Origin: Azolla caroliniana
Lineage: Eukaryota > Plantae > Polypodiophyta
Length of the DNA: 64,000 nt
Direction: 5' to 3'
NCBI GenBank assembly: GCA_043228905.1
Contig: JBHGNT010000005.1
Span: 22,320,001-22,384,000 of the forward strand
This document shows, in pieces, positions 21,401 through 44,493 of the stretch. The notes under the pieces are model-generated. The model worked only from the letters and a program-made list of their open reading frames with translations. It searched no databases and was not told the origin of the DNA. The position numbers and the translations under genes were made by a program. Position 1 is the first letter of the stretch; each line of letters starts with the position of its first letter.

Positions 21401-21469
21401 CAGTAGGATCCTTGATGGGAACGCCAAGATCCTTCAAAAGAGCTCGTGGGACAAGAAGTTGGTGGACAG

Positions 21470-21700: not shown

Positions 21701-21934
21701 TCACGGATGGGTAGATGTCGCTCTCTCTTAGTATTTAGCCTCGTCTACCCATCCGTGATAGTTTGTTCACCAGGTGCCCCCGAGTATTTATACAAGAATG
21801 TGGAGGTATGCATGTAAGCAATGAAACTTCTGGAGACTGCATGAAGATGAATTGTCCAGAAGTTTCTTGAATGTTCTAGTGATTAATCTACAATGTAGTA
21901 AGTTGAATCTTATACAATACAATAATGCATAGAT

Positions 21935-22003
21935 GGATGTAGTTTAACTGGTAAGGTTGCCCAATAAGACTAGGAGGTCATGGGTTCAACCCACTACATT
22001 CCA
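21935..22003 (+). other. tRNA-like or SINE-head-like sequence
   Basis: Box-A-like GTAGTTTAACTGGTAAG, box-B-like GGGTTCAACCC, and complementary ends GGATGTAG / CTACATTCC. No clean cloverleaf. Confidence 0.35.
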
Positions 22004-22597
22004 TGTGGCATCCTGTCTATGACACTACCAAAGATTAGCAAGGTAGTGTGGGTCAAGTGATTGATGGTGGCGAGAGCAATGCATACCTACAAAGCGGAAA
22101 AGGCAGATGCTTGGACGTGGGGTTCTGGTACTTACATCTCCACCAATATGTGAAATGCACTTGAGAGATAAAAACCAGCCTACTTCAGTAAGCTCAATTT
22201 ATAGTTGATACAAAGGTACCCATTTCGGTTGGCTTAGCTACATGTGTGCTAAAAGGGTGGGTTGGCTTAGTGTTGAGCGGCAAGCTCAACAGGATCCGGA
22301 TCGACATCCAGAAGGATGAGCTGGATCGGTGAGCAAGTGGGCCGGTGAGCTGGGGAGCCGGTTAGCCGGATCCAGCAGTAACCGGAAGCTTAGTTATAGC
22401 CTAGGCTACTAGGTAGTTAATGTCTCGTAGTTAGTGTCAGACGCTCGTGTGAGCATTGAAGTACACCGTACTTCTGTCAGTCCGCATGGACTTGTATAAA
22501 AGTGTTCACTGAACACATACGATGTACAGATTGAGTAATATTTTGAATTGAATTTCTCTGTGCTCTCTGTCTCTCCCGTGTACTGTGTATATTCTAA

Positions 22598-23283
22598 GCT
22601 CTCCATTAACCTGCGGTTCTGTTTTTGGTTTTCTATTGCTTCCACATGCTATTCTTTTTACATGGTATCAGAGCACGAGGGTTGAGAACCTCTGCAACCG
22701 ACATAGCTTGAAAGGAAAACCAACCCGGTAAGAACAGAAAGAGAAGTAATGGACAGAGGAATGACTAGCTTGCTCTTGGTGGAGAAGCTCGACAGATCCA
22801 ACTACGCATATTGGTCATACAAGATGCTCTCCATTAAACCTGCGGTTCTGTTTTTGGTTTTCTATTGCTTCCGCACGCTATTCTTTTTACATGGTATCAG
22901 AGCACGAGGGTTGAGAACCTCTGCAACCGACATAGCTTGAAAGGAAAACCAACCCGGTAAGAACAGAAAGAGAAGTAATGGACAGAGGAATGACTAGCTT
23001 GCTCCTGGTGGAGAAGCTCGACAGATCGAACTACGCATATTGGTCATACAAGATGCTCTCCATTAAACCTGCGGTTCTGTTTTTGGTTTTCTATTGCTTC
23101 CGCACGCTATTCTTTTTACATGGTATCAGAGCACGAGGGTTGAGAACATCTGCAACCGACATAGCTTGAAAGGAAAACCAACCCGGTAAGAACAGAAAGA
23201 GAAGTAATGGACAGAGGAATGACTAGCTTGCTCCTGGTGGAGAAGCTCGACAGATCGAACTACGCATATTGGTCATACAAGAT
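22598..23283 (+). repeat. Three ~229-bp tandem units, each U5 end + PBS + gag start
   Basis: Units start at 22598, 22826 and 23055; PBS at 22663, 22892 and 23121; identical ORF starts at 22749, 22978 and 23207. Confidence 0.95.
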
Positions 23284-25281
23284 GCACCAGTACCTGCTTG
23301 GGCATGGGTACTGGTGCTATGTCGACGGAGCTAACGACACAACACCTGATGCGGCACACAACGACTTCCCAGTGTGGGAACAAGCAACAAGCAGAGTGAT
23401 GTACTGCTTCGCGTTCAATGTCGGAGACTAGCTACTAAGCCATATCCGAGATGCCAAGATGCCAAAAGAATCTTGGGGAAACCTGAAGAACGTTTTCGCC
23501 GCAAGCACAACGACCAGGAAGCTGCAGCTTAGGCAGGAGCTCAACAATGTTCAACAAAAAATCTGTCTGTGGCCGATTACACGGCCCGAATCAAGGAAAT
23601 TATTGACTCACTTGCCTCCGTCAATGTGAACGTCAAGGAGGACGAGATGGTGCAAGTTTGTCTTGGTGGGTTAGCGTCTAAGTTCGGAGCTTTCCGAACG
23701 ACGGTCTGTACGAGGGAGAATACGCCGTCATTTTTCAACTTACAGTCGATGCTCCTTGTAGAGGAGAACCATGCCGGTGCATCAACAAGTGCACACACCG
23801 ACAACCGGATGCTGTACACGGAGGCGGATCGGCCCCGTGGGCGTGGTGGACGAGGCGGATCAGTCCGCAATGGTAGCGGCCGACAAGAGCAAGACCGAAG
23901 GTAGAGAGAACGTGCCGACAATAGTTCTGGACCCTCCACAAGCAGGGGGGATTCAAGGCGGCGCCGGAGGCCGGCAAGCAAAGGCCGACACAGAATGCTG
24001 GTATTGTGGTAAAAAGGGCCACAAAGAAAGCGAGTGCTGGAAGAAGCACGCCGATTCGGACAGATCTGGATCCGGCAATACTCGCACTACGTAGAAGGAT
24101 CAAGAGGATCCAAAACCAAAAAAGCTGGTAAAGGGCCAGCCTTGGTGATGAAACACGAGCCTAACTCGATGAAGAAGACCACTTCCAAATCAGAGGAAGT
24201 GTGGTACGTTGATTCCGGTGCGTGGAATCACACGACGAACCACAAAGAGTGGTTCTCCTACCTAGAGAAACCGGAACAACTGGGAGTTGTCGAAACCGAA
24301 GACGACACTCCTCACCCAATCGTGCATGTCAGTGAAGTCCCTTTGAGCCACGTTGGATAGAGGGGAAAGTTGATGAACGTATTACACGTTCCGACTATCA
24401 CGAAGAACCTAGTGTCAATCAGTCAAATCATTGTCCAGGGGATGCAGGTGTGGTTTACGCACCTTGGGTGCTTCATCGAGGAAGAGGGCTAGATTATTGC
24501 GCAAGGGCGTAGAGACGGGAGGATGTTCATCCTCGACACCAATGACGTCGGCACCACTTTGTTCGCCGAAGGACAGAAGATTGAATCGGACATCGATCTC
24601 TGGCACAAGTGGATCGGCCACGTCAATTACCAGAGGCTTCAAGATCTACAAATGAAACAAGTTGTTTTCGGTTTGCCGAAGTTCAGTGGCCGGAAGGCCC
24701 AAATATGTGAAGCCTGCCAACTCGGGAAGCAGCACTAGCTTCCATTCCCCACCCAACAAAACCATAGCTGTAACAAGCTCGACCTTATTCATTTGGATGT
24801 ATGGGGACTGGCATAGAATGTTAGTCTTGACGGGAGTCGGTATTTCATCTCCTTCATCGATGACTACAACCGTCACACATGGATCTACCTCATTGAGCGG
24901 AAGAGCGAAGTCTTCGAGTGTTTCTGGAACCTGCAAAACCTGGTTGAACGGGAAACGGAGAGGAAGATGAAGTGCTTGCGGTCGGATGGTAGAAAAGAAT
25001 ATTTTTCCGGCCAATTCAACAGTTATCTGCAACAAAAAGGAATTCGGAGAGAGTTCAGTTGCAGATACACACCGGAGCAAAACGGTGTGGCCGAGAAGAT
25101 GAACCGGTCGATTGTCGACGCGGCAAGGGCGATGCTGGAAGAGAAGAGCATGCCCCATTTCTACTGGATGGAGGCGGTCCGGACGGCCCTCTACATCCAA
25201 AACCGGATCGGTGACAAGGTGTCCGCGCATGAGCTATATTTCGGGTGCAAGCCGAATTTGAGACACCTTCGGATATTGGAT

Positions 25282-25732
25282 ATGTGCATGTGCCGGATGA
25301 GAAGCGGAGGAAGTTGGATGCAAAGTCGGAGAAATGCCTCCTTGTCGGTTACTCGCATGAGCAAAAGGGGTATAAGTGTTATAGCCCCCAGATGAAGTAG
25401 GTCCGAGTTAGTCGGGATGTTGAGTTTGATGAGACGACATCATGGTATGCCTTACCGGCTCCGACTTTGATCCCGACCCGATACCGGAGGATGAGGCTAG
25501 TGAGCCGGATGTGCATGTGTTGGATGAGAAGCGGAGGAAGTTGGATGCAAAGTCGGAGAAATGCCTCCTTGTCGGTTACTCGCATGAGCAAAAGGGGTAT
25601 AAGTGTTATAGCCCCCAGATGAAGTAGGTCTGAGTTAGTAGGGATGTTGAGTTTGATGAGACGACATCATGGTATGCCTTACCGGCTCCGACTCTGATCC
25701 CGACCCGATACCGGAGGATGAGGCTAGTGAGC
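25282..25732 (+). repeat. 227-bp tandem duplication inside copia pol (integrase C-terminal region)
   Basis: ATGTGCATGTG...GAGGATGAGGCTAGTGAGC occurs at 25282 and 25509. Confidence 0.92.
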
Positions 25733-28700
25733 TTAAACCGGCCCAGATAGAAGATGAAGACCTCGACACTCTAGAAGAGAGTTTGATCTCATTTCGGTTA
25801 AGTGGACCGAATGAGCAGCTGAGTTGGGATGACCAGTCGGATGAGGAACTGGCAAGTAGTGGGGACTTTGTCGTGCTCTCCTCGTGCAAGGAACCGAGGA
25901 GACGGTTCACGCGCAAAGAGAAGGGGAAGAAGAAGATGCCAGAATACGAAACCGGCAACAATAAGTCGGATCGGAGCGAATCCGACTCCAGTATGGAAGA
26001 AGGTGGATCTTTGGGAACGAAGTCCGGACCGGCCAAGAAGGGCCTCAAACCGGGTAACAGTAGATTACGCCGGTCTTCCCGCCAGAAGAACCCCTTGAAG
26101 CGGTATGGGTACAATGAGTACATGGCGCATCACTATGCGTACATGACCAAGGTGGCGGAAGTGCGTGAGCCGGAGAGCTACGCAGAAGCGGCAAAGGACG
26201 CACATTGGCGTGCCGCTATGAAGGAAGAAATGCGGGCACTTGATGCCAACGACACATGGACCTAGTTGATCCTCCCCAACACTGTAAACCGATCGAATGT
26301 AAGTGGGTGTACAAGGTAAAGTACAACACCGATGGTTTGGTTAACTGGTACAAGGCCCGATTAGTGGCGAAGGGATACGCGTAGACCCACAGAATCGACT
26401 ACGATGAGACCTTCGCTTCGGTAGCGAAGATGACGAGGGTTCGTGTGGTGCTGGCGGTTGCTACGGCAAGGAGGTGGCATCTTCACCAGATGGACATGAA
26501 GAATGCATTTCTTCAAGGGCGATCTTGAAGAAGAGGTCTTTATGACCCAACCCCCCCGGTTTCTAGTCGGAGATGAACAAGTTGGCGGTATGCTGGTTGA
26601 AGAAGTCACTTTATGGCCTGAAGTAAGCCCCTCGAGCTTGGAATGCCAAGATTACGCACCGGTTGCGTAAGATGGGGTTTGCGGCCTCCAAGTCTGACTC
26701 TTCGTTGTTTATCCGGCAAGGTCCAGACGGTCCAGTTTGCATCTTGTTGTATGTTGATGATTTGGTCATCACTAGACTTGGACTCGATGAAATCAGCCGA
26801 GTCAAGTCCCAACTGTCGGACGCATTTGAGATGAAGGACATGGGGGACCTTCACTATTTCCTTGGGATCGAGGTGATCCAAACCCCTGACGGCATATTAC
26901 TCTCACAAAGACACTATGTGTTGAATATGCTGTACAAGTTCGGCATGACGGAATGCCGACCGATATCCATCCCCCTAGACCGGAACTAGAAGCTCTGTCC
27001 CGACTCCGGACCGGCCTGCGATGAGAAGCGGTTCTGACAAATAGTCGGAAGCCTTATATATTTGACAATCACCCGACCCGACATCAGTTATCCGGTCGGC
27101 GTGATCAGCCTAAAAATGCAGAAGCCGACCGTGGAGCACCTTCTGTGCGCGCATCAAATTTTGCGATATGTGAGCGGCACGAAGGAACGGGGACTGGTAT
27201 ATCGGTATGGTATAACCAAAGAGCTAGTCGGCTACACCGATGCCGACTGGGCCGACGATGCATCGGATCGCCGATCCACCTCCGACTATATGTTTTCCCT
27301 TGGTAGCGCGACTGTTGCATGGAGCAGCAAAAAGTAGCCAACAGTGGCCCTTTTGAGCACTGAGGCTGAATACCGGGGCGCTATCGTTGCCACCTGTGAA
27401 GCCATTTGGCTTCCGCGACTGCTACAAGACCTCCGGATCGAGGTGCCGACCCCGATCCTTATCTACTGTGACAACATAAGCAACATGCAACTCGCCAAGA
27501 ACCCCGTATTCCATGCTCGCACAAAGCACATAGAAGTGCACTACCACTTCGTGCGTGAGCGTGTCCTGAGAGGTGAACTTGAACTTCGGTATGTTCATAT
27601 GGATCGGCAAGTTGCCGACATCTTCACCAAACCGCTCGGATTGGACAAGTTGTAGCACTTCACCAAAATGCTTGGTGTTCAGCATCTCGACGTGCCACAC
27701 TTGGAGGGGGAGAACGGGCAAAGGCAAAGAAACTGCCGATTGCGTCGGTGAGGGAAGAACCGACAAAGGGGGAGACAAGAAGAAAAAAAGAGCCGAGTCG
27801 ACAAAGGAAGTTGACACATCCGAACAAGTCGGAAAAAGCGGCAGTGATGACAGAGTCAAGAAGGATAGAGCCGACCGGAAGAAGAAGGCCAAGACCCGGA
27901 TATGGTCCGATGTGGTGAAGGGCCTGGAACCGGAAAACGAATCGGGAGCAACCGATTCGGACAAGAGCTGGAATGAATCGAAGACAACCGATTCGGTTCA
28001 ACAGACGGATTCGGAAGAACTTGATCAATTCAAGGCCAAGAGGATGAGATGGTAGCAAAAGTCGACAACAACACGAAGGAATCGGCGAGTTGACAAGCGC
28101 CGAAGTCACAACAGCGAGGGAGCTGATTTGGGTCTGCTAAGCAGACAAGCCGACCAAGGAGGTCGAGATGCGCAGAAACAGAAGGGTTGCAACAAACGGG
28201 ACTGGACTGGACGAGGAGCGCAAGCAAGGCGGAGTGACGCAAGAAGGAGCCGGGTGGAAGGACCGGCTGCCATGGAGACTGACACTACGATCCGACCTCA
28301 AGTTGAGCTTGAGGGGGGGTGTTGAGCGGCAAGCTCAACAGGATCCGGATCGGCATCCAGAAGGATGAGCTGGGGAGCCGGTTAGCCGGATCCAGCAGTA
28401 ACCGGAAGCTTAGTAACAGCCTAGGCTACTAGGTAGTTAATGTCTCGTAGTTAGTGTCAGACGCTCGTGTGAACATTGAAGTACACTGTACTTCTATCAG
28501 TCCGTATGGACTTGTATAAAAGTGTTCACTGAACACATACGATGTACAGATTGAGTAATATTTTGAATTGAGTTTTTGTGTGCTCTCTCTCTCTCTCTCT
28601 CTTTCTCTCCCGTGTATTGTGTAAATTCTAAGTTCTCCATTAAACCTGCGGTTCTGTTTTCGGTTTTCTATTGCTTCCGCACACTATTCTTTTTACACTT

Positions 28701-29297
28701 AGGTACATACTAAAAGGGTGGCACATTAAGCTCAATTTATAGTTGATACAAAGGTACCCATTTCGGTTGGCTTAGCTACATGTGTGCTAAAAAGGGTGTG
28801 CTAAAAGGGTGGGTTGGCTTAGGTACATACTAAAAGGGTGGCACAAAGGAACACATGCACACCACAATATATATATATATAAGGTTGAAAGAAAGGTAAA
28901 CATATGGCAAGAAGGAGACATATTGTGTTATATAATAAGAATGAAAAGGCTAAGTTTGCTCAATTCGTAAGAGCTTATGTTATGAGTGAGAGGTCAATGG
29001 TTCAGGACTTGTTTGGATTATAAAGAGATTTTTGCTAGCATCATGCTGCCACAGTAAAGTAAAGCATGCAAGTGAGAAAAAATGTAAGGTGCATGTTAAT
29101 TTTTTTATTTGCTAGAGGGCCTCTTGAATCCTATAAAAGGGTGAGGAGAGCTCATTGTTGGGGAAAGTTTTGAAAATGAGGTGGAAGTGCTACTAGAATT
29201 CAGATACATACGATGAATATGAATACGAACGCATGAAAAAGTAATCATTAAAATGTTTTAAAAAATTATAAAACTCCATCCTTTTTAGTCTCCCATA

Positions 29298-30047
29298 CAT
29301 AGATTGACCCATGCATGATATTCGAGAATACAAAATGGCCCCGAGAATATTACAGAACCATTGGTTTTTAATTTACATAATTTTTTTTTTAATTTACTAA
29401 AATATTAACCAATTCACTAATAATGAATTAATTTACAAAAAATAGTAATTAATTCATTATTAATTAATTAATTAGGGTTTTAAAATTAAAATATTAATTA
29501 ATTCACTAATAATGAATTAATTTACTATTAATGAATTAATTAGGGTTCCTAATTTCAGCCAAAATTAGAGTTTTAAGAATTAAAATATTAATTAATTCAT
29601 TAATAATGAATTAATTTACTAAAACATTAATTAATTCATGATTAATTAATTAATTAGGGCTCCTAATTTCAACCAAATTTAGGGTTTCAGCACCACCCTA
29701 GGTTTGGAGGCCGAGAATAATATGTAAGTGACACTTTGAGGATGAGGGGGAGGCGAAGATGCAGGCCGGAAAGAAGAAATATGGTCAAAATTAGGGTTTT
29801 CAGCCGAAACCCTAATTTGCAGGCCGAGAACAGGATGCAAGGGGAGGCAAGGGTGTAAGCATCAAGTACAAGATGCAGGGTGTAGCCTCTACGCTCACTA
29901 TTCTGTGTTGCTTGCTCACTAGCTAACGTTAAAAAAAAAGGATTCTTTTTTTCAAAAAATTTTAAAAAGGAAAAAAACTAATATTATTACTTGTATTCGT
30001 ATGCATTCGTGGGGGAGGCCCCACGAATGCGAATATGTCAATCTATG
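29298..30047. mobile_element. Non-autonomous hAT-type MITE
   Basis: TIR CATAGATTGAC / GTCAATCTATG; 8-bp TSD CTCCCATA / CTCTCATA (1 mismatch); internal AT-rich tandem repeats. A further orphan right TIR ends at 36897. Confidence 0.8.
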
Positions 30048-30459
30048 CTCTCATATATAAAACAAGCTACATTGACAATAAAAAGAGTTCTTAACACTAA
30101 AGATACTTTAATAATAGATGTAAAAGTATTTGTTTTTTTATAATAAATAAATATAAATAAATTAAGGTTCATCAATTACCCCCTTTTTACTCCCCCAAAT
30201 TTTGTGAATATTTTTATGGGAAAAGTACCAGGATACCCCTGGAAGTTTGTCTATTTACCAGAATGCCCCTAGAAGTTCCAATTTTACCAAACTACCCCTA
30301 TGTCCAAAAAAATACACTCTATAAAGTCAATATACACTCAAATATACAAGCCATATTTACCAAAATACCCTTCAAATACAAAATTCTTTACTTAGCGATT
30401 CTTTGGGTAGTCTTTCTCTTCTTTCTTGTTCATCATCAATCGTCTTCATCAGGTCAGTA

Positions 30460-30535
<76 letters not shown>

Positions 30536-30631
30536 TTGTGTTTATATGTAGTCAATTCTCTATTATTAGGTTTGCTCTTTCTTCTTTTATTATTCAATCC
30601 CCTTTTCCTACTAATTTCTCTTTTTCTTGTA

Positions 30632-31258
30632 TCCTTCAAAGATTTCTTCTTCTTCTTCTTCTTCTTCAAAGAAAACCCCTTCTTTCAACCTCACAATGCA
30701 TTACTTGGCCTTCATTGATTGATCTTGAGTTGCAACATGCTTTGAGAATGCTCATAAATGTAACAATATCAAGGAAGATACCATTAGATTGCATATTTTC
30801 AAAGCATTCAACAGCTTCTTCAGATTTTCCATATGTAACTTCTCACCCATTCTTCTTAACATAGAGCTACAATTCTCAAGCTTAGATCTTCTTTGACCCA
30901 TTTGATTCATTTCGTCTTCTTTCCTTTTTAAGGCCTCAATGCATCTAAGAAGAGATTTTTTAGATCTTCTCAGGTGAGGTTCATAACCAACTGTATGTGG
31001 TGAGAAGCTATGTATAGCTAGATCAACATAAGAATCGTAGGTTTTTATATCTGAGATGGCATCTCGTAGAGTTCGGCAAATGTCAAGAAGCTTAACATTG
31101 TCATCTAAGTACTCATCTGACCATTTGAAATCACCTTATGCAAGAGCCTGTTGAAGATCAGGGATAAATACCTCTGCATATCCATGTGTAGAAAGAACCA
31201 CTTCTTCCATAGCTTGGCAAAGCCATAGAATACTCAAATATCCGCCTTCATCGGTTGA
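30632..31258 (-). pseudogene. Captured chimera in the left MULE arm: BPS1/ROH1-like (DUF793) fragment ~31258-30839 fused to a PLS-PPR fragment ~30838-30670
   Basis: Reads GYLSILWLCQAMEEVVLSTH...FIPDL...*GDFKWSDEYLDDNVKLLDICRTL, like the BYPASS1 core, followed by YGKSEEAVECFENMQSNGIFLDIVTFMSILKACCNSRSINEG (PPR). Confidence 0.8.
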
Positions 31259-31344
31259 CTTCAATCTCTCCAATTGCTGACAAAGATGTGATTCTCTCCA
31301 ATTGCTGACAGAGATTGTATCTCTAATATGTGATTCTCTTCTTT

Positions 31345-31641
31345 GGGTAGTCTTTCAAACACAATCAATGAAGTCCAGGAGATTGTATTTCTAACATGTA
31401 AATTATCGAAAACCTGTCTAGCTCTCTCGATTGAGCCACATTTTGCATAAGTATCAACCAAAGTGGTAGCCAATGAGACATCACTATGTAGGAAACTTGT
31501 CGAATCACATTCTACATGTACATGAAGACTTGTTCTCATGTCTCTTAACCTTATACAAGCCTTGAGCAAAGCAACAAAAGTATGTTCATTTGGATGTGAA
31601 GAAGAAACATCAACGTTTCTCATCGTTTTGTATAGATCCAA
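31345..31641 (-). pseudogene. Captured PLS-class PPR gene fragment
   Basis: PNEHTFVALLKAC...TLVDTYAKCGSIERARQVFDNLHVRNTISWTSLI. Confidence 0.88.
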
Positions 31642-31721
31642 TGCTTTCTTCTTCTTCTTCTTCTTCTTCTTCTTCTTCTCTTTGTCTCGCTCTCATTTCG
31701 ATGTTTGATGTCTCTCATAGA

Positions 31722-33561
31722 ATGGCTTTGGCAGAGGGAAGGCAGTTTGACTCTTTGAAGGAGCTTCGACAAGCTGTGAGAGATGATGCAATTGGCTCTC
31801 ATGTTGAGCTAAGAGTGATCAAGTCAGATAAAACAAGGTTCACATGAATTTTGCACTCATATGCTTTTACACTCGCTTGACTTTTAATCTTAAATTTGTG
31901 CTCACATGACTTTTGCTAGATTAACAATTGCATGCAAAAATTCTGGATGTCGATGGAGGTTGCATGCATCTTGTATTGAAGGAGGTCCAAAATGCCAGAT
32001 CAAGAAGAATAGGGAAGAACATAAATGTGGTGGCACTCAACACTTGGGGAACAAAGAAGTAAGCTCAAAATGGTTGGCTGAAACAACATTGGAGAAGTTT
32101 AAAGATCATCCCACATACACACCAAAGCAACTAATTGGTAATGTGTGTCGTGAAAATCGCGTCACTATCTCTTACAGGGTAGCGTGGAAAGCAAAAGAAA
32201 GTGCACATGCTCAAATCCATGGGGATCATGTATTTGCATATCAAAATCTTCGAAATTATTGCCAAAACATTTTAGAATCTAATCCTAGTAGTGTGGCACA
32301 TGTTCAAGAAACAATTGAAGGCCTCTTTCTTCGCATATTCATTGCTTACAATGCAAGCATAAATGGTTTCATGCATTGTAGACCAATAATTGGTCTAGAT
32401 GGAACTCATTTGAAAGGAAAATATCTAGGAATCCTTCTCACGACTACAACCATCAATGCACAAGGTGCTTTGTTTCCGATTGCATTTGGTGTAGTTATAG
32501 CAGAGAATGATGATAATTGGTGTTGGTTTCTTCAAAGTTTGAAGGATGGTCTTCGACACACAGATCCACTAACGTTTATTTCAGATAGACAAAAGGGTTT
32601 AGTGGATGGTGTCATGTTGGTGTTTGGCAATGATACATCACATGGATATTGCATGCGCCATCTATTAGACAATTTCAGAAAAGCTTTTAAAAGCACTCCA
32701 CTATTGGGGATGTTGTGGAAAGCTGCAGATGCAACTAATACTCAAGACTTTGATGTTATCATTGGAGAAATTTGCACTTTAAATAGTAATGCAGCTAAAT
32801 GGCTAATGAGCACCGCCGACCCCTCACATTGGGCTACATGTAAGTTTTCAGGGAAAAGGTTTGGACACTTGACATCTAACATTGCTGAGTCCCTAAATGC
32901 ATGGTTGTTAGAGGCTAGAGCTATGCCTATTCTAGGGATGATGGAATTGATACGCCAGAAGATAATGTCATGGTTTTATGAAAGGAGGGTTAATGGAGAA
33001 ACTTCTAAAGCACGTACTGGATTGGTTAATGGAGAGATAACACGTAATGCATTGGTTGGATATGCAGAGAAATTCATTAGAGAATCCATACAACGTGGAA
33101 GACTATATCGTATTTTGCCATCTACTAATGATGTTTTTGAGATCCATACTCTGAAACATGTTAGGATTGTTTATGTGGATAAGAAGATATGTACTTGTGG
33201 ACAATGGCAGGATATGGGGTTACCTTGTGCACATGCAACGGCTGCTATTTTGTTTCGAAAAGAAAGAGTTCAATATTTTGCACACAAGGCATATTTGTTG
33301 CAATCATATTGTGATACTTACAAGGAGCCAATATTTCCTATTGTTGTTACGCATGATAATTTTGTTGCAGGCATGTTACCACCAGCCACACGAAGACCTC
33401 CGGCACGTCCAAAAACCAAACGTATACGCACAATAGAAGAAGGCACAAAGAAGAAGAACATCGTTGTGGAAGGTGTCGTGGGAAAGGACACAATGCTCTC
33501 AGTTGAAGGGCCCCAATTTAGTGATGATTGTGCATTATTAGATATTTTGTTGAGTCAATAG
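31722..33561 (+). CDS. MudrA-like MULE transposase; exons 31722-31837 and 31920-33561
   Basis: N-terminal zinc/WRKY-like domain (CKNSGCRWRLHAS...EHKC); DDE triad IGLDGTH / FISDRQKG / SNIAES; CMRH; SWIM CTCGQWQDMGLPCAH. The C-terminal knuckle is frameshifted (other frame reads HRCGRCRGKGHNALS*). Confidence 0.92.
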
Positions 33562-34890
33562 ATATATTTGATTTTGTGGATATTTTTGGAATTACACTTT
33601 TTGTATTGGATTGGTAAAATTTGGAATTACACGTATTTGATGTTCTTGTGTATAAGTAAGAGATGGATAGGTAAGGATTTCGTTGTAACTAGTTTCGTAT
33701 GGGAAAGGAATGGAAGAGGTTTATGTGAAATTAGTAGTAAGAATCATTACGATGATTTGTTATAAGAAAAAAATTGGAAAAAAATTCATTTGAGATTGGC
33801 AGTAAATACTTTTGTTTTGTATGAGAGAAATTGAGAATAAATTCATCTGAGATTAGTAGCTATTGTACAATGTTCTTTGTGCTTTTGCTACTTATCCTTA
33901 TGTATGTCTGATGCTAGTAGTCGTTGTTCTTATATGAGAGAAATATAGTAGTAACTATGTGGAAACTATTGTTCTTTCGTGCGGAATGTTATTGTATGGG
34001 AAAAAGGAAGAAATTCGTCTAAAATTAGATATAAATGCAGAATCTTTGTTGTTTCACTCTTCATGATTGTTGTTTGACAAAAGAAAATGAAAATAAACAT
34101 TTGAGTTACTGTATGAAATTTTTGTGATTTGACTCCTTCTTGATGTTGTGTGTGCAAATGAAATGGAGGAAATTTGGCTGAGGAAATGATTAACTATAGA
34201 AGAAAGGGGGAGAGCCCTACGAGATTAGTAGTAGCTTGTGCTAACACTATGTGTTCATGTGACAAAAAACATGGAAGAAATTCATCCGATATTAGTAGTA
34301 TGTGCATATTATTCCAGTGCATTTTTTTATCTCTATAGTACTGTGGTATACATTCATATTCAAAGATTGTAAAGCCTACTATTGTTACTTAGGATTCTTT
34401 TGAATTATTAGATGATATAGAAGTTGTGATCCAAGGAATGCTTGGCTAGTAAGTATACGGAATTATTCTACAATCAAGGAATTGGAAAACGTTTTGTATT
34501 TTATCCCTGATTATCAAGTACATGAAACTCTTGTGCTAAGCATTCACATGAATAGGATTTGGAAAACCTAGAAACTCTATCCTACAATTCTTATGAATTG
34601 TCGAATAATTACTAGCCACTATAGTTCTCCACTACTCATATCCCCCTCATCCTTTGGATTAATGGAGAGATCATGATGAACCATCCTTGGCGAATATGAT
34701 GCAAACCTACTGAATTGTTGTTCATGATGCCGATCGGTAGGCCTTATATGCTCCACATCATGTTTACATTGGCAATTAGCAAGCCTACATTGAGGTAGTG
34801 TAAGATTGTGATGTGCTACTTTGGGAGATTTTGCAACCATATAAAATTGTGGATCATGATGAGAAATAAAAGTGGTCAAAATTGGCTGAT

Positions 34891-35460
34891 GTTCTTTCTA
34901 CACATGGATATGCAGAGGTATTTATCCTTTATCTTCAACAGGCTCTTGCATAAGGTGATTTCAAATGGTTAGACGAGTACCTAGATGACATTGTTAAGCT
35001 TCTTGACATTTGCCGAACTCTCCGAGATGCCATCTCAGATATAAAAACCTACGATTCTTATGTTGATCTAGCTATACATAGCTTCTCACCACATACAGTT
35101 GGTTATGAACCTCACCTGAGAAGATCTAAAAAATCTCTTCTTAGATGCATTGAGGCCTTAAAAAGGAAAGAAGAGGAGATGAATCAAATGGGTCAAAGAA
35201 GATCTAAGCTTGAGAATTGTAGCTCTATGTTGAGAAGAATGGGTGAGAAGTTACATATGGAAAATCTGAAGAAGTTGTTGAATGCTTTGAAAATATGCAA
35301 TCTAATGGTATCTTCCTTGATATTATTACATTTATAAGCATTCTCAAAGCATGTTGCAACTCAGGATCAATCAATGAAGGCCCAGTAATGCATTGTGAGG
35401 TTGAAAGAAGGGGTTTTCTCTGAAGAAGAAGAAGAAGAAGAAGAAGAAATCTTTGAAGGA
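34891..35460 (+). pseudogene. Inverted copy of the BPS1-like + PPR chimera in the right MULE arm
   Basis: Reverse complement of 30632-31198 with few mismatches; KWLDEYLDDIVKLLDICRTLRDAI and FENMQSNGIFLDIITFISILKACCNSGSINEG. Confidence 0.88.
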
Positions 35461-35999
35461 CATCCATAATATCCTGCATCGCCATGGATAGGAAGCTTCA
35501 TGAAGGTGTCATTGGAGCTGTCTAGGTCAGTAGAGAGGTGTTGCCGTGTGAACAGATGGTAAATTGGGGGAGGAAATTCTTGATGGTGATGGTGGTGGTG
35601 GTGACGAGGCAAATGTCGAAGAGGAAGATGATGATCAGGACGATGGATATGACGAACAGATGGGGATGTGGAGGGTTCGAGGGGGATATGATTTATGATG
35701 TATTTTGAGAAATAAAAGTGGTATAAATTGGTCAAAATAGGTATATAGTGGCATTATGGTAAATAAGTTTAGGTTTAAGGGTATTTTGGTAAATATGGCT
35801 TGTATATTTACTTTATAGAGTGTATTTTTTGGACATAGGGGTAGTTTGGTAAATTTGGAACTTCCAGGGGCATTCTGGTAAATAGACAAACTTCTAGGGG
35901 TATCCTGGTACTTTTCCCTATTTTTATTGAGATTAAAAAGAGGACTTGACACTAATCATATTGGGAAATGCACATAAAAGGGACACCACAATATTAATA

Positions 36000-36730
36000 T
36001 TTCGTAAGTTTTGGCAAAAAATCTGGAAACAACAACACACTAGGTGAATTACTACATTCAAATAGATATTAATACATAAGTCACTACCGGTTGGAGCATA
36101 CCTTAGCCCTCCTAATTGTGTAGCATGCCCAAATGCAACAGAATCAATTTGACATGCTCTATGGGACTTCCCAAAGACCCATCTAATATGGCAAGGGGTT
36201 GGCCGCCTATTGCAATTATGTTAGTTGCAAGGCACAATCAAGTGGGGAAATGTATGTTGGTTATCATGGCAGGCCCTAGTTGGCAGGCACGAACATTAGG
36301 AGGAGGGGATTACTTTGGTGATAAAAGCAAAAGAGGTTTTTTTTCCACCATCGACAATATCCACTCAACTCCTATTAATGCCAAATCTCAAGTTGTGTTG
36401 GAATTGGCCAGCCCAATAACTCTTTGGATTCTATGGAAATAGCAGTGGATGGGTCTTCTCCAACCAAACCGAGCATCCAATAATGTTAATGCAAGAGATA
36501 TTAAGTGAAGTTATGGCCACTCTAAAGAGACAATACAATGGCCTCAAGGGCAGATCCGGTGGAGTTGCAAGAAAATGACTAGTCTTCATCCAACAATGGT
36601 TGTCCTCCCTTTCTCGACTCAGTGGGCATCCACATATGATGGAACTATCGCGTCCCTACAGGGATTTGTATATAACATTCTCAAATGTAAAAGTTTATAA
36701 CTAATGGAAGGAGTTTTTTTTCGAAAAAAT
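36000..36730 (+). mobile_element. 5'-truncated, decayed 3' end of the same L1-like LINE family as 54986-60330
   Basis: [11 protein letters not shown]...PITLWILWK; 3' end CTAATGGAAGGAGTTTTTTT..GAAAAA matches the reverse complement of ~54986-55020. Confidence 0.8.
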
Positions 36731-37556
36731 AATAATATTATTATATCACATATAAAAATATTTATTTTCTTTAAATAAATTAATTAATTAAATAAACGAA
36801 TGATTTTATAATATGCTTGAGGCCATTTCTTATTCTCGAATTTTTGAATATCACAAATGGAGAATATCATGAATAACATGCATGTGTCAATCTATGCAAC
36901 TAATTGGCATCTCCACCCAATGTGTACTAGTTACAACACCTCTTTTTGTTGATCCTTAGCTCCAACATTAGTTGAGAACGCAATCCAAGAACTTTATTGG
37001 ATAGGTTGCATGGATTATGAGGATTGAGTTATGTATATTCACCAAGAATGATTATTGTTTAGCCAATTACCCAAATGTCATTGATATTGATCATGTGCAT
37101 GGGGCCTAATGGGTGCATTAATTTCAAAGAATAGGGTATTGATCATTATTGACTAGATCTCGTTTGTGCACATGAAGACCCTTAGCCCATAGGTAGGGAG
37201 CCTTGAATATTGAATAAAGTATGATTATGCTCATCGGAGTTGTGATGCCTTTGACAATATTGCATGTGTAAAAAGAAACACGACACTTTTAAACAAGAGC
37301 AATGCATTATCTCTAGTCATGATTAGTGTGTAGCTAAAGGAGAAAGGTAAGTGGATCGAAACGAAATAGCATTAGATTAGCATTAGATTAAGTTAGAGAG
37401 ATTAAATGTTACTTGCTACAACATGCCAATGGGGACAAAAGCAAAGAAGAACTAGAACCCTTGCCATGAAAGGGCCTAAGGTTGTTCCATGATAATTTGT
37501 TTATCGATCGATTATTACAAGCATCGCACCACGTTGCATTTTACTTTGTAGAGCTA

Positions 37557-38651
37557 CTAATTGAAGTTTCCACAAGAAGTTCGGTCCGGTAATAGAAGGC
37601 CGGTGAAACTGAGCCGGGACTTGGCAAGGTCAAACTCCACCAAGTTCTCTTGTTGTTGGTAAGTGCCTAGGACAGATGGTGCGTTCACACCGGCATCTAC
37701 GAACGCCCAACAAAGAACATTACCGGCCACATTAACCATAGAGTTCCAGCCGAAGATGTACCACACAGCGCCACCCGACAATTGTAGGTCGATATCCGCC
37801 ACGCTAGGGAGCATGCTCATGTAGATGAAGTTAGTCCTGTTGAAGCAAGTGTCGAAAGGGGCTTGAGTAGACAATGGGAGGGCAGGTGTGGAGGTGCCGA
37901 ATCCGATGGCCTTCCGGAAGGCGGAACGCACACGGAGGTATAGCTTGTGTTCCAAGCGGGTGTAGGTGGTCTCGATGCTCACGTAGAGTCGGAAGGGGCC
38001 CACATTTAGAGATTTGGAGCTGACCACAATGTCCCGGACGGATATCGAGTAGGGGCTAGACACGTGGCTACTCCGGGACGATGACACGTGGAGGGTCGTG
38101 TGAGAGAAGAGAGCTGAACGGTCACTGTAATCGCCTCCCGCCCCGCCTCTCGAGAAATACCCATCCCGGCTTCCCCCTAGGAAAAGTGGCCCCTCCGGTA
38201 AGCAATATGCGAAGACACGAGAGGCATCACTTAGGCTGCTGGCGATCTGAGCTGGCAATGCCAGGTCACCGCCCCCGAGGGCCGCCTGCCCGGACCTGCC
38301 ACACCGGAATGCCACATGGCGGACCGCGGCCGGCACGACTGGAGGCCTGCCATTGGTTTGGTCGAGGCGGAGTGTGTCCTCGGAGTGCCCGTTGCGGCGG
38401 CGGAAAGTGGAGGATGTGGAGGGCTGGAAGGCGGAGGAGGCGCATCGGACGGTGGACACCCGGGCTGCGAAGGTGATGTTCACATTTTGGGGCTGGGGCG
38501 GCGTGCCGAGTGGCAGGCTCACCGTGTACACACCATCGACAAGGCGGACATTGGCGCGTAAAGGGGTCGAGGAAACATGTAATGTGGCCATGGAGGAGCC
38601 CACCATGGTGATGGTGAACATGACAAGGTAGGTAGAGAAGAAGCTCTTCAT
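37557..38651 (-). CDS. XEGIP/EDGP/TAXI-family inhibitor-like protein, copy 2, intronless
   Basis: Intact ORF paralogous to 17334-18443 with the same non-catalytic motifs (ITFAA, VSIET) and ENLVEFDLAKSRLSFT...RTSC. Confidence 0.88.
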   Translation of the reverse strand: MKSFFSTYLVMFTITMVGSSMATLHVSSTPLRANVRLVDGVYTVSLPLGTPPQPQNVNITFAARVSTVRCASSAFQPSTSSTFRRRNGHSEDTLRLDQTNGRPPVVPAAVRHVAFRCGRSGQAALGGGDLALPAQIASSLSDASRVFAYCLPEGPLFLGGSRDGYFSRGGAGGDYSDRSALFSHTTLHVSSSRSSHVSSPYSISVRDIVVSSKSLNVGPFRLYVSIETTYTRLEHKLYLRVRSAFRKAIGFGTSTPALPLSTQAPFDTCFNRTNFIYMSMLPSVADIDLQLSGGAVWYIFGWNSMVNVAGNVLCWAFVDAGVNAPSVLGTYQQQENLVEFDLAKSRLSFTGLLLPDRTSCGNFN

Positions 38652-39898
38652 AGTCACGATGACGATGAGTTCTTTAAATGTAAGTCCTTACTCATCTTTT
38701 ATAGATGACTTCTCTATCCTAGCGGGGTTGGGGATCGGGGTTAGGATCGGTAGTCTAGTCTACCACATAGCATGGTTTAGATATATTATGTGCTTTACAC
38801 CCACAACACATTTCACGCATGGACCCTGTCGAAACGATATGTGTTCGGCTTTTAGGAATAGATTTAGGTGTTGTTGCTCATCCACATTGCAAAGAGAACA
38901 AGCCTTCTAACATGCCCCACCTCGACATGGGTTGAATTGAGCATGCCCCTTGGAAATTATATTGATTTTCTTTGAAGTTTGGGAAGCATTGAGTGAGTAA
39001 CTTGCCATGTATGCTTTCCATGTCTCATACAAAATGCGACCCCTTTTACCGATTTCTCACTATTTTATGCATGAGGTGGAAACTCCCAACACATTTCCCT
39101 ACAAAGAAGCCCACTAATCTAGATTTTAATTCATCAGTCAACATCATGCATTAAAAATCATAACGATGGCTTCAACTTGGTCAACTTTAGTATTAATGTG
39201 TATATTCTATATAAATAAATGTGTGTGTGGATGCGTCAACATTTTGGAGGTTTTAATCTATTACATCTTAATGTTGACGATTTGCATCTTCAATTCCAAA
39301 ATTTAATTAGTTTTTCAGGACATTGTGGATAGGTTTTACACCGATCTCGTTTGACCATGTCCTTTTCAAACAAAGGCTTTATCTAAGGTGCATTTCGTAT
39401 CTTGTGGCTGTGGCGCCCAAGGATCCAATGTTAGGCTAAAAAGTCAATACTCTTGTTATAAGCAAGTTGACATGATAAAAGCACCTTTAGCTTCTTTATG
39501 TGAAGAACACGCCAAAAAATGAATTCAATGGTAAAATAGTTATGATTGGTCATCCCTCTGTGGATTTTCTTGAGTACGTTTGCAATTTGTATCAACACAT
39601 GTGTTTAGTATACAATAACATGCAATATAACCCGCCTAGTTTCCACCTATGTATAAGTAAGGAACCCTCAGTTCTAGTTCCAAATCTTCAAATCATATCG
39701 TTGCAGGATCCAATATCCTAGCTACAACGATAAGGCACCCAACCCTATACCAACTTTTAATTGTTTTTGCAACATTTTTGCGACCTGGTTAGAATCTAGC
39801 ATAGTTCTATCAAGCACAAATAAATGACTGAACTTTTGTTTGAACTCCTGAAGTGTTGCACTTGCACTCAACATTTTGTTGGGAGATTCGACCCAATC

Positions 39899-40353: not shown

Positions 40354-43300
40354 CAATCCTTCTTCCTTGTTCGGGATGAGTCATCGAGGTCATACTCCTC
40401 GAGTAGGTTTCTTTCAAAAGTTACCCAATCGGGCTTGCTACTTGTATTTCTAGGATTAGAGAATGAAGGCTTGAAGCGACGATCCTTCCAAAACTTGAAT
40501 GTTGCCTTGCCATGGGTATATACCTCTCATTCGCATTTTAGTTTTATAGGACTTCATGTATCGGGTCACATCTTCCCCATCAAAGAAACCATTTGCATCC
40601 ACGATCTTTTCAATGGCCTTGTCAAGGCCTGTAGTATTGTCCCTCTCGCGAAGCGGTCCATCATCATGGCTATCACTTGATTCACCGGTCATCCTCCCTT
40701 GCAACTCATTTCATGTCGAGTTGACCAAATTTATGTCCATTATTTTAATTCTTATTTAACATTGTATCCTTTAATTATTATTATTGTTGTTGGAAGAGCA
40801 ATGGAAAGCGGAGAGTTGTTGTTTTTCTGCAGAGGAAACGATGAACAACACACACAGAAGACAACACAAGAAAAAAGACACACACAAAAATATTTTAGCG
40901 GGCACACAGAAAACCCTCATATTATTAGCTTATATACCTATTCATAAATAGTGAGAATTTACCTTTTTGGCCTTTCTCACTATCTATCAATTTCCCACTA
41001 AAGGCCAAACAAGGGATCAACAAAGCTTATGGGAAGACTGCACAAGACCTAGACATCCTACTTGATGAATATGTTACACAATATACGTAAAACAGTGTGT
41101 AACCTGAGGAACTAAGTAATTCCCATCAAGTGACAATAATGCTCTATCGCATCACGTGGTAGAGCTTTGGTCAATGCATCAGTGGCATTTTCTTGAGAGA
41201 CAACATTCTCAAGACTAATGTAGCCAACAACTATGCATTCTCAGATGAAGTGATACCGCACTCCAATGTGCTTGGTCTTTGTATGGTATATTGGGTTTTT
41301 CGCTAATGCAATGGCACTCTAACTATCACAAAACAATACGGGTACAAGTTTAGGTATGCCCATGTCACAAGCTAATCTGGATAGCCATACAGCTTCCTTG
41401 CATGCTTCGCTAGTAGCAACATACTCTGCTTTTGTAGTGGACAGAGCAGTACATTCTTGGAGACAAGATCTCCAAGATGTGGTACCTCCCATAAACTGAA
41501 AAATATACTCTGAAGTGAGTTTTCTACTCCTATAATGTATACATTTCTGCCACCTAAACATAGACACTTATTCTTGATGCCACACGGATATCTTATTATC
41601 ATTTTAATTGCCTCCCTATGTTTCTTACCAGGGTTTGACAAAAATCTGCTCACAGCTCCCACTACAAAAGCAATGTATGGCCTAGTCGCTATCATAGTGT
41701 ACATAAGACTACCAACAACTAACTGGTAATGAATTTTACTCATGAACTCCTTTTCATGATTAGATTTGGGGCATTCATCTTTGCTCAATTTAACATGCAT
41801 AGATAATGGAGTGATCAAAGGCTTTGCATTCTCCATATTAAACCTCTTGAGTATTTTGCATACATAGTCAAATTGAGACAAATAAATACATCCATTACTC
41901 CTATCCCGAGTAATACGCATTCCAAGGATCTATTTAGCATTTCCCAAATCTTTCATATCGAAGGTTTGACTCAGATTTTTCTTTAGTTTGGACAACTCAT
42001 CCTTGTTTTTACCGGCGATGAGCATGTCATCTACATAGAGTATCAAAATCACATATGAGTCATCTATACATTTCTTCGTATATAAGCATGAGTCTTCATT
42101 TCTCCTAGCATAACTTTGGGACGTCATAAAAACATCGAATTTTTTATACCGTTTTCGAGGTGATCGCATAAGGCCATATAAACTTTTCTTAAGTTTACAT
42201 ACCAAAGGCATTTTCCCATAAATTTCAAAACCCTTTGGTTGCTCCATTGAGATCTCCATGCAAAAAAACCATTTTAACATCCATTTAAAATAAATCAAGA
42301 TCATTTTTTGCAACCAATGCAAGCATCATGCGTAATGTACTCATCTTGACTACCGGAGAGAAGATTTCATTGAAATTGACTCCTTAGTATTGTTTAAAAC
42401 CTTTTGCCACAATGCGAGCTTTATACTTGGGATGAACACTATCGGATGTGTATTTGTACTTATACACCCATTTACATGGTAGTGCTTTCCTAGCTTTTGG
42501 CAAAGGCACTAAATCCCGAGTTCCATTCTTATGGATACTATCCAACTCATTTGGCATTGCTTGCTTCCATTTAGCATGATTGTGAACAAATATGGCTTCA
42601 TTGTAACATGAAGGCTCACCGACATTTGATAACATTACATAATCAACAAATTTACTAGGTGTTTTGGAGACACGGGTAGATCTCCTCAATGATTCCTAAA
42701 CATGAATACCATCTGACACGTTCGCATTCACAAGTGGAAGGATTGCGCATTCCACTTGTAGAATCTTCTTGAAACGAAGCAAATACACCCTCTCTACAAA
42801 AATTGGATGCACTAGTATCACATGTTCCTCAACTTGATTAGAATTTGCAAATATAAAAATACATGATAGGTCTACGAGTGGTGATACTATTTTTCGATGA
42901 CTGGTGATGAGCAAGACACTTACTTCGGGTCACATATGCAACTAGTATCTGACAAATGTACGGGGATCAAAGTTTCATTCGAGTATTATATCTTCCATGC
43001 GCAACAAATATGTAGAGTTGCATTCGAAATTGCGTTATGTGTTAGTAACATGTGGCTACATAGAGTACAACAACGTCTACTTAGCGGGGATCAGATGCTC
43101 AATTGTAAAGAGGTTCTAAGTATGAAAAGTGCAATTGGAAGACATGCTATTGGTTGGATGAAAAGTTACTTTCAGTTAAATTGTGAAGTAATGCCCACTA
43201 CAGGTAGGATGCACGTTTCTGATAATTATACACGTTGGGAAGTTTATGATGTTTATCGATCTAATATGGTGGGCTCACGTAATAAGTCTATTACATATAA

Positions 43301-43890: not shown

Positions 43891-43998
43891 GTGTCTAGAT
43901 ATACACTCAATCACTGTCTCCTCACACATGCAAAACAGGGCTTCTCTCTCTAGACCACACACGCTCTCAAAAAGGTTAAAGAAGAGGTTAAAAGTGAT

Positions 43999-44487
43999 AT
44001 GGAATTAGCTAAAACTGGGTGGGTTGATGTAGTAAAACGTAATATTAAAAAAGAACTAAAGGATGAAAACATTGTAAACACTACCCTCGAGGAAGAAAAA
44101 ATGCGTCAAGCTCGACGCCTAAATGTACGAGTTACTGGGCTCAAGGAAGGGGCATCTCCGGATGAAGATGCACAAACATTAGGGAAAATGATAGGGTACG
44201 AAGCCCTACCAATCACTAAAACCTGGAGGGTAGGGCGTGACACAACTAGGAAAAGAGCTTTAGTCCTTCAGTTTAAGGACTCAGAATCTAGAATCGCCTT
44301 TTTTAAAAAGAGACCAATTCTTCGAGGCTTGGGCGGGGAGCCTATCTACCTCGATGAAGACTTGACCAAGATGCAAATTGAGCATCGTAAAACTTGTATG
44401 CCACGAGTCATACAAGCTCGTAAAGAGGGGCATCGTGCTTTCTACCGGGACGGACGTGTCATAATAAATGATCGTGCCGCCAATTGA
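43999..44487 (+). CDS. LINE ORF1, C-terminal RRM/CTD-like part (5' truncated)
   Basis: NVRVTGLKE...IYLDEDLT...ARKEGHRAFYRDGRVIIN is typical of CR1/L2/RTEX-type ORF1. The frame is open upstream of the ATG. Confidence 0.75.
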   Translation: MELAKTGWVDVVKRNIKKELKDENIVNTTLEEEKMRQARRLNVRVTGLKEGASPDEDAQTLGKMIGYEALPITKTWRVGRDTTRKRALVLQFKDSESRIAFFKKRPILRGLGGEPIYLDEDLTKMQIEHRKTCMPRVIQARKEGHRAFYRDGRVIINDRAAN

Positions 44488-44493
44488 CGGCGT

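What the first reader, a model, noticed from the sequence alone, without database searches (positions are those of the whole stretch)
30218..35918. MULE that keeps its transposase and carries captured BPS1-like + PPR exons as a ~570-bp internal inverted repeat: a possible mobile hairpin/siRNA generator
Seen: 30632-31198 and 34891-35460 are near-identical inverted arms inside the true TIRs. They are separated from the TIRs by different spacers and flank a transposase with an intact DDE core. Each arm is the same chimera of a BYPASS1/DUF793-like fragment and a PLS-PPR fragment. Both arms share the same junction and TAA, so capture came first and duplication to the other end came second. Known: Pack-MULEs usually lack transposase, inverted duplication of gene fragments is an accepted route to new siRNA/miRNA loci, and PLS-PPRs are organellar RNA-editing factors. 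Inference: a read-through transcript could fold into long dsRNA and trans-silence BPS1-like and PPR genes.
Basis: partly seen in the sequence, partly recalled or inferred. Interest (0 to 1): 0.8.

Follow-up and report, generated by a model that had tools for sequence, protein, structure and literature searches.

The report
Fern transposon with mirrored gene cargo
A Mutator-type DNA transposon, likely from a fern, carries pieces of three host genes around a damaged transposase, and one 570-base block of that cargo sits at both ends as a mirror image, most likely left by a one-off DNA-repair copy; it could yield silencing RNAs, but that is untested.

Summary
The structure is real. A MULE at 30218-35918 has a perfect 9-bp target duplication, ~150-bp TIRs and inverted arms 96.7% alike. 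Against a related copy each arm has 8 private changes, so this is no assembly artefact. The left end holds one PLS-type PPR fragment split by a BPS1/ROH1-family insert. The right arm is a partial inverted copy of that chimera, sitting inside a third captured gene (PB1-domain) where about 1.1 kb is missing. Junctions show microhomology and locally templated filler, as expected from break repair. The transposase core is open, but its C-terminal zinc knuckle is frameshifted and stopped, and only 5 of 20 scored differences from sister copies are synonymous (neutral). Related copies share the left cargo, yet one (L002) has a different right end: an older inverted copy of the cargo-free left end. 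So mirroring likely recurs in this family, while this mirrored cargo looks copy-specific rather than mobile. A full-span RNA would fold, but no transcript or small RNA was testable, and mismatches show no sign of selection for pairing. Verdict: new variant of gene-capturing MULEs; siRNA role about 15-20%. The scan listed no look-alike elsewhere.

The parts
30209..30217 (.). Left target-site duplication, 9 bp
   Evidence: identical to 35919-35927
30218..30375 (+). Left TIR
   Evidence: inverted match to 35774-35918, 4 substitutions, 2 indels
30376..30631 (+). Element's own leader with (CT)n tract; predicted splice donor at 30453 (inferred)
   Evidence: collinear in L001, where the donor is a perfect consensus; use of the site untested
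30632..31198 (-). Left arm: the template of the inverted repeat (45 nt of leader with (TTC)n, PPR 3' piece, most of the BPS1/ROH1 piece)
   Evidence: continues without a break into more BPS1/ROH1 sequence at 31199-31294
30677..30832 (-). PPR fragment, 3' piece
   Evidence: PF13041; on one contig with 31361-31638, 14 letters apart, in X19, same joint in X3 and X16
30827..31294 (-). Captured BPS1/ROH1-family (PF05633/PF03087) coding fragment, about codons 41-191 of a 351-aa fern homologue, with TAA at 31136-31138; 6-nt overlap with the PPR piece
   Evidence: donor-like contig in X19 covers 30827-31294 with 26 differences in 468; overlap
31295..31360 (.). Filler patched from nearby sequence (pieces matching 31265, 31286, 31379 and the left leader at 30399)
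   Evidence: 10-18-nt exact local matches; same filler in L001
31361..31644 (-). PPR fragment, 5' piece, with 36- and 31-residue repeats (L and S type); present at the left end only
31722..31837 (+). Transposase exon 1 (MuDR N-terminal domain)
   Evidence: PF03108 E 1.2e-8; GT..AG intron 31838-31919 keeps the frame
31920..33521 (+). Transposase exon 2: MULE DDE domain and SWIM finger open; C-terminal zinc knuckle broken by a frameshift near 33453 and TGA at 33504-33506
   Evidence: knuckle unbroken in L002 and in X1/X3 contigs
34619..34865 (-). Third captured gene, 3' piece (PB1-domain gene)
   Evidence: 93% identical to P0039; cluster member P0040 carries PB1, PF00564 E 3.6e-15
34866..34890 (.). 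Filler resembling the element's own right subterminal sequence
   Evidence: 34860-34885 matches 35706-35731 at 92%
34891..35460 (+). Right arm: inverted partial copy of the left cargo
35468..35631 (-). Third captured gene, 5' piece
   Evidence: one 6259-nt contig in X14 covers 35484-35629 and 34645-34865 with 1112 letters between; X21 contig covers 35468-35631
35774..35918 (-). Right TIR
35919..35927 (.). Right target-site duplication, 9 bp

Best explanation
This is a damaged copy of a multi-copy, transposase-encoding MULE that carries pieces of three host genes, and its internal inverted repeat most likely arose once, when a DNA break in the right-hand cargo was repaired by copying 567 bp from the left end in reverse. 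Shown: the nesting (PPR split by BPS1/ROH1; PB1 gene split by the right arm), the cargo-free ancestral leader, the broken C-terminus, independent drift of the two arms. Inferred order: (1) a PPR fragment entered the (TTC)n tract of the transposase leader; (2) a BPS1/ROH1 fragment entered the PPR fragment; (3) a PB1-gene fragment was taken up at the right end; (4) the family spread with this cargo; (5) in this lineage template-switch repair replaced about 1.1 kb of the PB1 piece with the inverted left cargo. Inferred present state: a silent relic, movable only by a transposase from another copy, whose arms erode neutrally; any small RNA from it would be a by-product able to touch only the single donor genes.
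For: TSD and TIRs. Both PPR pieces lie on one contig 14 letters apart (joint 30832/31361 in X3, X16, X19). X14 contig 9 (6259 nt, depth 29.5) and contig 12 (1126 nt, depth 131.6) join the two PB1 pieces without the arm; X21 shows the joint too. L002 joins 30667 to 31655 with no cargo in its inverted end copy. 6-nt microhomology at one junction, templated filler at two. Against L001, 8 changes are left-only, 8 right-only and 7 shared by both arms, of 564 columns; four shared bases (34940, 35133, 35276, 35294) also differ from the main contigs of X1, X3, X14 and X21, so the duplication postdates the split from those copies. Per-arm drift 1.4% (CI 0.6-2.8) equals per-TIR drift 1.4% (CI 0.4-3.5). 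Transposase differences from X1/X3 contigs: 5 synonymous of 20, neutral expectation 0.22-0.28. Arm mismatches that would still pair as G-U: 6 on +, 5 on -, 5 on neither, of 16. Hint only: single-contig depth over the arm (X1 378-427; X3 93-101) is near that over the transposase (X1 335-370; X3 114-142), not twice it; depth is not a copy number.
Against: No genome is held, so copies with the two-arm form could not be counted. No run was shown to hold this very copy (best share of words 0.46). One site conflicts with a simple in-cis copy: 34930 T is shared by the right arm, L002 and contigs in X3 and X14, while the left arm has G. The TAA is shared with L002, so it predates this copy. The arms are still good dsRNA substrate: 302 of 547 21-mers pair perfectly. 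An aspartyl-protease gene at 37557-38687 points toward the right TIR 1.6 kb away, so read-through has the right orientation. The synonymous test uses 20 sites from a truncated table and has low power.
Confidence: 0.7

Rival explanations
1. The locus is a working hairpin-siRNA source: a transcript from a TIR promoter or from the flanking gene runs through both arms, folds, is diced, and lowers or methylates the BPS1/ROH1-family donor gene (and perhaps the one PPR donor).
For: Predicted fold pairs 554 of 567 left-arm bases with the right arm across a 3.7-kb loop; duplex -992 kcal/mol; longest perfect run 152 bp. Arms differ from donor-like contigs by 2.9-6.5%, so an estimated 25-54% of 21-mers would match exactly. 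MULE TIRs hold promoters (PMC3310237). Inverted TE duplications do make dsRNA and siRNA in maize (10.1101/2020.01.07.897926 abstract). Ferns have 21- and 24-nt small RNAs (PMC5569507 section 8).
Against: Needs a transcript of at least 4.8 kb, or about 6.9 kb past the flanking gene's stop. The left arm may lie in a predicted leader intron (30453-31720; inferred) and the right arm starts 1.37 kb after the transposase stop, behind three AATAAA motifs. No strand bias toward G-U pairs. In maize, capture did not lower expression of syntenic donor genes (10.1101/777037 abstract and headings). Even for Mu killer the read-through hairpin model was disputed (PMC3440606 passages).
Confidence: 0.17
2. The two-arm form is itself a mobile subfamily: the mirrored cargo acts as an extended TIR and has been transposed to several sites.
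For: Perfect TSD and TIRs 97% alike. Acquired sequence is reported to become part of extended TIRs, and symmetric double-TIR MULEs amplify well (PMC3310237 discussion). The TIR family is very abundant in the laid runs, so helper transposase may have been at hand.
Against: The arms are separated from the TIRs by unrelated spacers, so they are not extended TIRs. L002 and the X14/X21 contigs show right ends without the arm. Arm age matches TIR age.
Confidence: 0.1
3. The right arm is an assembly artefact.
For: Long inverted repeats are error-prone, and no raw reads of this genome were available.
Against: The arms differ at 16 sites, split 8 and 8 against an outgroup copy; the right arm has its own filler junction.
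Confidence: 0.02

Closest known systems
Pack-MULEs (Jiang et al. 2004, recalled; described in PMC3310237, PMC5861414, PMC8277862)
   Same: Long TIRs, 9-bp TSD, fragments of several unlinked host genes fused into chimeras, multi-copy, cargo degenerate.
   Different: Pack-MULEs are defined as non-autonomous; this family keeps a full transposase gene between the cargo blocks, and this copy mirrors one block.
Transposase-encoding elements with transduplicated genes: KAONASHI/ULP1 MULEs, grapevine Mutavine (cellulose synthase) and Cactavine-5 (antisense PPR fragment) (PMC2528002, PMC13317346), barley Abermu ORFR (PMC9168764)
   Same: Host sequence beside a transposase gene; the PB1 piece sits downstream in opposite orientation like ULP1 or ORFR; an antisense PPR fragment with possible regulatory effect was already proposed in grapevine.
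   Different: Three nested donors, cargo in the transposase leader, and an inverted second copy; none of the passages read describes that.
MULEs with extended or multiple TIRs (Ferguson and Jiang 2012, PMC3310237)
   Same: [quoted passage not shown]
   Different: Their inner pair is TIR sequence; here it is gene cargo, set off from the TIRs by unrelated spacers.
Mu killer and Ac/Ds composite-insertion killers (PMC3440606; 10.1101/2020.01.07.897926)
   Same: Inverted duplication made inside a DNA transposon, potential dsRNA source. L002's right end, an inverted copy of the leader and first 28 transposase codons, is closer still.
   Different: Those arms are transposase sequence with short or no loop and have shown siRNA output; here the arms are host-gene cargo 3.7 kb apart and output is untested.
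Gap-filling / template-switch capture by TIR transposons (Tan et al. 2021, PMC8277862)
   Same: Microhomology at one breakpoint, extra sequence at the other, capture inside the element.
   Different: Described in animals; here one template is the element's own other end.

Membership tests
MULE superfamily | 9-11-bp target-site duplication | tested here: met
   9 of 9 identical; range from PMC3310237
MULE superfamily | Long TIRs (100-500 bp) | tested here: met
   158/145 bp
MULE superfamily | MuDR-type DDE transposase | tested here: met
   PF10551, PF03108, weak PF04434; D199, D261, CxxH 283-286, E362 in the spliced frame (catalytic roles recalled)
Autonomous MULE | Unbroken transposase reading frame to the native C-terminus | tested here: not met
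   frameshift near 33453 and TGA at 33504-33506; unbroken in L002 and X1/X3 contigs
Autonomous MULE | Transposase under purifying selection | tested here: inconclusive
   5 of 20 synonymous fits neutrality; few sites
Autonomous MULE | Demonstrated transposition | not testable with these tools
   no genome or population data
Pack-MULE | Host gene fragments between MULE TIRs with a TSD | tested here: met
   three donors
Pack-MULE | Non-autonomous, no transposase gene inside | tested here: not met
   full-length though damaged transposase gene present
Extended-TIR / tandem-TIR MULE | Inner inverted pair contiguous with, or similar to, the TIR | tested here: not met
   unrelated spacers of 256 and 313 nt; arms are cargo
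Mu killer-type hairpin silencer | Long inverted duplication able to fold | tested here: met
   predicted fold
Mu killer-type hairpin silencer | Arms contain transposase sequence | tested here: not met
   arms end 524 nt before the ATG; met instead by L002's right end
Mu killer-type hairpin silencer | Transcribed across both arms and processed to siRNA | not testable with these tools
   only contigs were available, no raw or small-RNA reads
PLS-class PPR donor | P-L-S repeat pattern (35, 35-36, 31 residues; lengths recalled) | tested here: met
   36- and 31-residue spacing; 9 of the top 12 hits carry the E motif PF20431
PLS-class PPR donor | Donor has E/DYW domains and edits organellar RNA | not testable with these tools
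   full donor not recovered; best listed identity 52%
BPS1 proper versus ROH1 clade | Orthology by phylogeny | not tested
   Pfam scores ROH1-like above BPS1 for the fragment and for P0002; no tree was built

The most novel reading that the evidence does not exclude
This fern MULE family repeatedly copies its left end into its right end in reverse, so whatever sits in the transposase leader becomes a long hairpin template: first its own leader and first exon (L002 type, a self-made Mu killer), later captured host genes (this copy, a silencer of a BPS1/ROH1-family gene). That would be a built-in route from gene capture to new siRNA loci.
Probability: 0.15. Interest if true: 0.72.

Novelty: new variant of a known kind. 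Interest (0 to 1): 0.4.

Why it matters
The locus records the steps of gene capture in unusual detail: three donors, nested, with repair scars at the junctions, in a family that still carried its transposase. It shows how an inverted gene-fragment duplication, the assumed first step toward new siRNA or miRNA loci, can form inside a transposon, and it does so in a fern, where such elements are little described. Two independent left-to-right inverted copies in one family suggest a repeatable process. The arm-specific bases make the siRNA question directly testable with existing kinds of data. Without small-RNA evidence it is a well-resolved relic rather than a regulator.

Tried and rejected
No whole genome is held, so donors and copies could not be mapped or counted. 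No RNA holder listed: none of the 22 runs is on record as RNA; this is no evidence on expression. 6 of the 22 runs were laid (X1, X3, X14, X16, X19, X21), all contigs. No listed contig crosses the right junction 34866-34890 in X1, X3, X14 or X21, and X19 has no cover over 32140-33299; such holes prove nothing. Rfam: 0 matches at gathering score in 29000-37500. ESM Atlas gave no usable hit for P0039. The PPR search did not recover the donor (425 hits of 484 candidates, best listed identity 52%). Hanada et al. 2009 is not held and Lisch 2002 was not sought; both are cited only through PMC3310237. Earlier-findings look-up by place gave nothing. Rejected: two separate PPR captures (one contig holds both pieces); right-to-left copying (the right arm interrupts a third gene, the left runs on into donor sequence); the TAA as a mark of this copy (L002 has it, L001 does not); a larger outer element 29298-36896 (the left end pairs better with 30047). 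Not resolved: whether L002's full-length BPS1/ROH1 tail is an ancestral longer capture or an assembly chimera with the donor gene (low-coverage contig). Literature searches for a transposase-bearing MULE with mirrored cargo listed none; most were judged from titles and abstract starts, and most subscription journals are not in the library. No supplements were opened.
Full report
1. Observation. The element runs from 30218 to 35918 and is flanked by an identical 9-bp direct repeat. Its TIRs (158 and 145 bp) differ by 4 substitutions and two indels. The inner arms, 30632-31198 and 34891-35460, differ by 16 substitutions and one 3-nt indel in 570 columns. Of 15 frames scanned against Pfam, the arm frames hit ROH1-like (PF05633) and BPS1 (PF03087) and, in another frame, PPR; the central frame hits MULE (E 6.2e-16). 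The host is likely a fern: the best of 37 hits (416 candidates) to the BPS1/ROH1 piece are from Adiantum (71%), Pteridium, Psilotum and Ceratopteris.

2. Transposase. An ATG at 31722, a GT..AG intron at 31838-31919 and exon 2 give an open frame with the DDE residues, CxxH and SWIM motifs (residue roles recalled). Two X19 contigs cover 31826 and stop or jump at 31837, one resuming at 31918, a hint that relatives use this intron if X19 is RNA. The C-terminal zinc knuckle lies in another frame and has TGA at 33504-33506. L002 and contigs in X1 and X3 have it unbroken; L002 has a frameshift of its own. Of 20 single-base differences from X1/X3 contigs upstream of the frameshift, 5 are synonymous, against a neutral expectation of 0.22-0.28. 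These 20 come from the 40 rows shown (336 rows not shown); 33499 and 33506 were left out as they lie past the frameshift. The copy looks dead.

3. Left cargo. A 1322-nt contig in X19 covers 30827-31294 with 26 differences and runs on into unrelated sequence at both ends, as a donor gene would. An 809-nt contig covers 31361-31638 and 30677-30832 with 14 letters between; X3 and X16 show the same joint. So there was one PPR fragment, later split by the BPS1/ROH1 piece. One junction has a 6-nt overlap; the other has 66 nt of filler built from 10-18-nt pieces of nearby sequence. Repeat spacing of 36 and 31 residues fits the PLS class, and 9 of the top 12 hits carry an E motif. L001, a related copy, has the same chimera and filler but no TAA. 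L002 shows 30667 joined to 31655 with no cargo, so the cargo entered the (TTC)n tract of the transposase leader.

4. Right cargo. The sequence on both sides of the right arm belongs to a third gene. 34646-34864 is 93% identical to P0039 (1 hit, 2 candidates), whose cluster member P0040 has a PB1 domain. A 6259-nt contig in X14 covers 35484-35629 and 34645-34865 with 1112 letters between; a second contig at 4.5 times its depth and an X21 contig make the same joint. In the window those 1.1 kb are replaced by 25 nt of filler that resembles the right subterminal region, plus the arm. The right arm is therefore the copy, and it came last.

5. Age and spread. Against L001, 8 sites are left-only, 8 right-only and 7 shared by both arms, of 564 columns. 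Independent, equal drift rules out a misassembled duplicate. Four arm-shared bases also differ from the main contigs of four runs, so the duplication is younger than the split from those copies. Per-arm and per-TIR drift are both 1.4%, with wide intervals, which fits a duplication near the time of this insertion. One site (34930) conflicts and may reflect conversion from another copy. As a hint only, single-contig depth over the arm is close to that over the transposase in X1 and X3. L002 shares the left cargo and transposase up to 33605, then carries an older inverted copy (87-88%) of the cargo-free left end, including 28 transposase codons; X1 and X16 show that joint too. Mirroring thus happened at least twice in the family.

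6. Hairpin potential. A 4829-nt RNA across both arms is predicted to pair 554 of 567 left-arm bases; 302 of 547 21-mers pair perfectly. This follows from the identity and is no evidence of function. Donor-like contigs differ from the cargo by 2.9-6.5%, so about 25-54% of 21-mers would match the donor. Against function: no G-U bias (6 +, 5 -, 5 neither, of 16); the left arm may lie in a leader intron (inferred; an alternative acceptor at 30569 would put it in the 5' UTR); the right arm is 1.37 kb past the transposase stop. For: TIR promoters, and a flanking gene at 37557-38687 that points into the element. Only 156 nt of PPR are mirrored, and the nearest listed PPR proteins are at most 52% identical, so family-wide PPR silencing is unlikely.

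7. Known systems. Pack-MULEs are non-autonomous by definition, and acquired sequence can join extended TIRs (PMC3310237, parts 1-4 of 6 read). Transposase-bearing elements with host fragments, including an antisense PPR piece, are known (PMC2528002 passages; PMC13317346 passages and section 7; PMC9168764 abstract). Inverted TE duplications that make siRNA are known (PMC3440606 passages; 10.1101/2020.01.07.897926 abstract). Cross-talk siRNAs from captured fragments hit donors, while syntenic donors keep expression (10.1101/777037 abstract). Gap-filling capture with microhomology is described in PMC8277862 (passages). Most ferns sampled have 21- and 24-nt peaks (PMC5569507 abstract and section 8). 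PMC10401008 (abstract) and PMC5861414 (passages) were background. Six searches listed no paper on this exact layout.

8. Verdict. Real, more layered than first read, and assembled from known processes. It works like a Pack-MULE built on an autonomous backbone, fails the strict Pack-MULE and autonomous-MULE tests, and has the shape but not the shown output of a Mu killer-type locus. Most likely a decaying relic with a one-off mirrored cargo (0.7); working siRNA source 0.17. Interest 0.4.

Noticed in passing
L002 3268-3520: Inverted copy of the cargo-free leader and first 28 transposase codons behind the transposase, a Mu killer-like layout; the same joint (31805/33605) appears in X1 and X16.
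   Followed up: partly
L002 107-583: Carries the BPS1/ROH1 frame through to its stop codon, where the window switches to PPR; either an ancestral longer capture or an assembly chimera.
   Followed up: partly
window 35796-35918: Summed contig depth over the TIR is about a thousand times that over the element's interior in X1 and X3, with short head-to-head TIR joints: likely a very abundant MITE-like family using these ends.
   Followed up: no
window 31020 (X1 loose end): A contig joins the BPS1/ROH1 piece directly to TIR-like sequence: a likely short non-autonomous Pack-MULE derivative.
   Followed up: no
window 29298-30047 and 36886-36896: AT-rich element with 11-bp terminal inverted repeats and a 7-of-8 flanking direct repeat, hAT-like by TSD length (recalled); a further right end at 36896.
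   Followed up: partly
window 17334-18494 and 37557-38687 (-): Two paralogous single-exon TAXI-type aspartyl protease genes (PF14541, PF14543) on either side of the transposon block.
   Followed up: no
window 2466-3122 (-): RING-H2 finger coding exon (PF13639).
   Followed up: no
window ~21100-28100, 41372-42325, 51274-53901, 61212-63602: Copia-like LTR retrotransposon remnants, judged by eye from ORF translations.
   Followed up: no
window 43954-48240 and 55045-59555: LINE-like endonuclease and reverse-transcriptase frames, judged by eye; 36006-36050 matches 55688-55732.
   Followed up: no
window 33606-34618: About 1 kb between the transposase and the PB1 piece with 25-30-nt imperfect repeats; absent from L002; origin unknown.
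   Followed up: no
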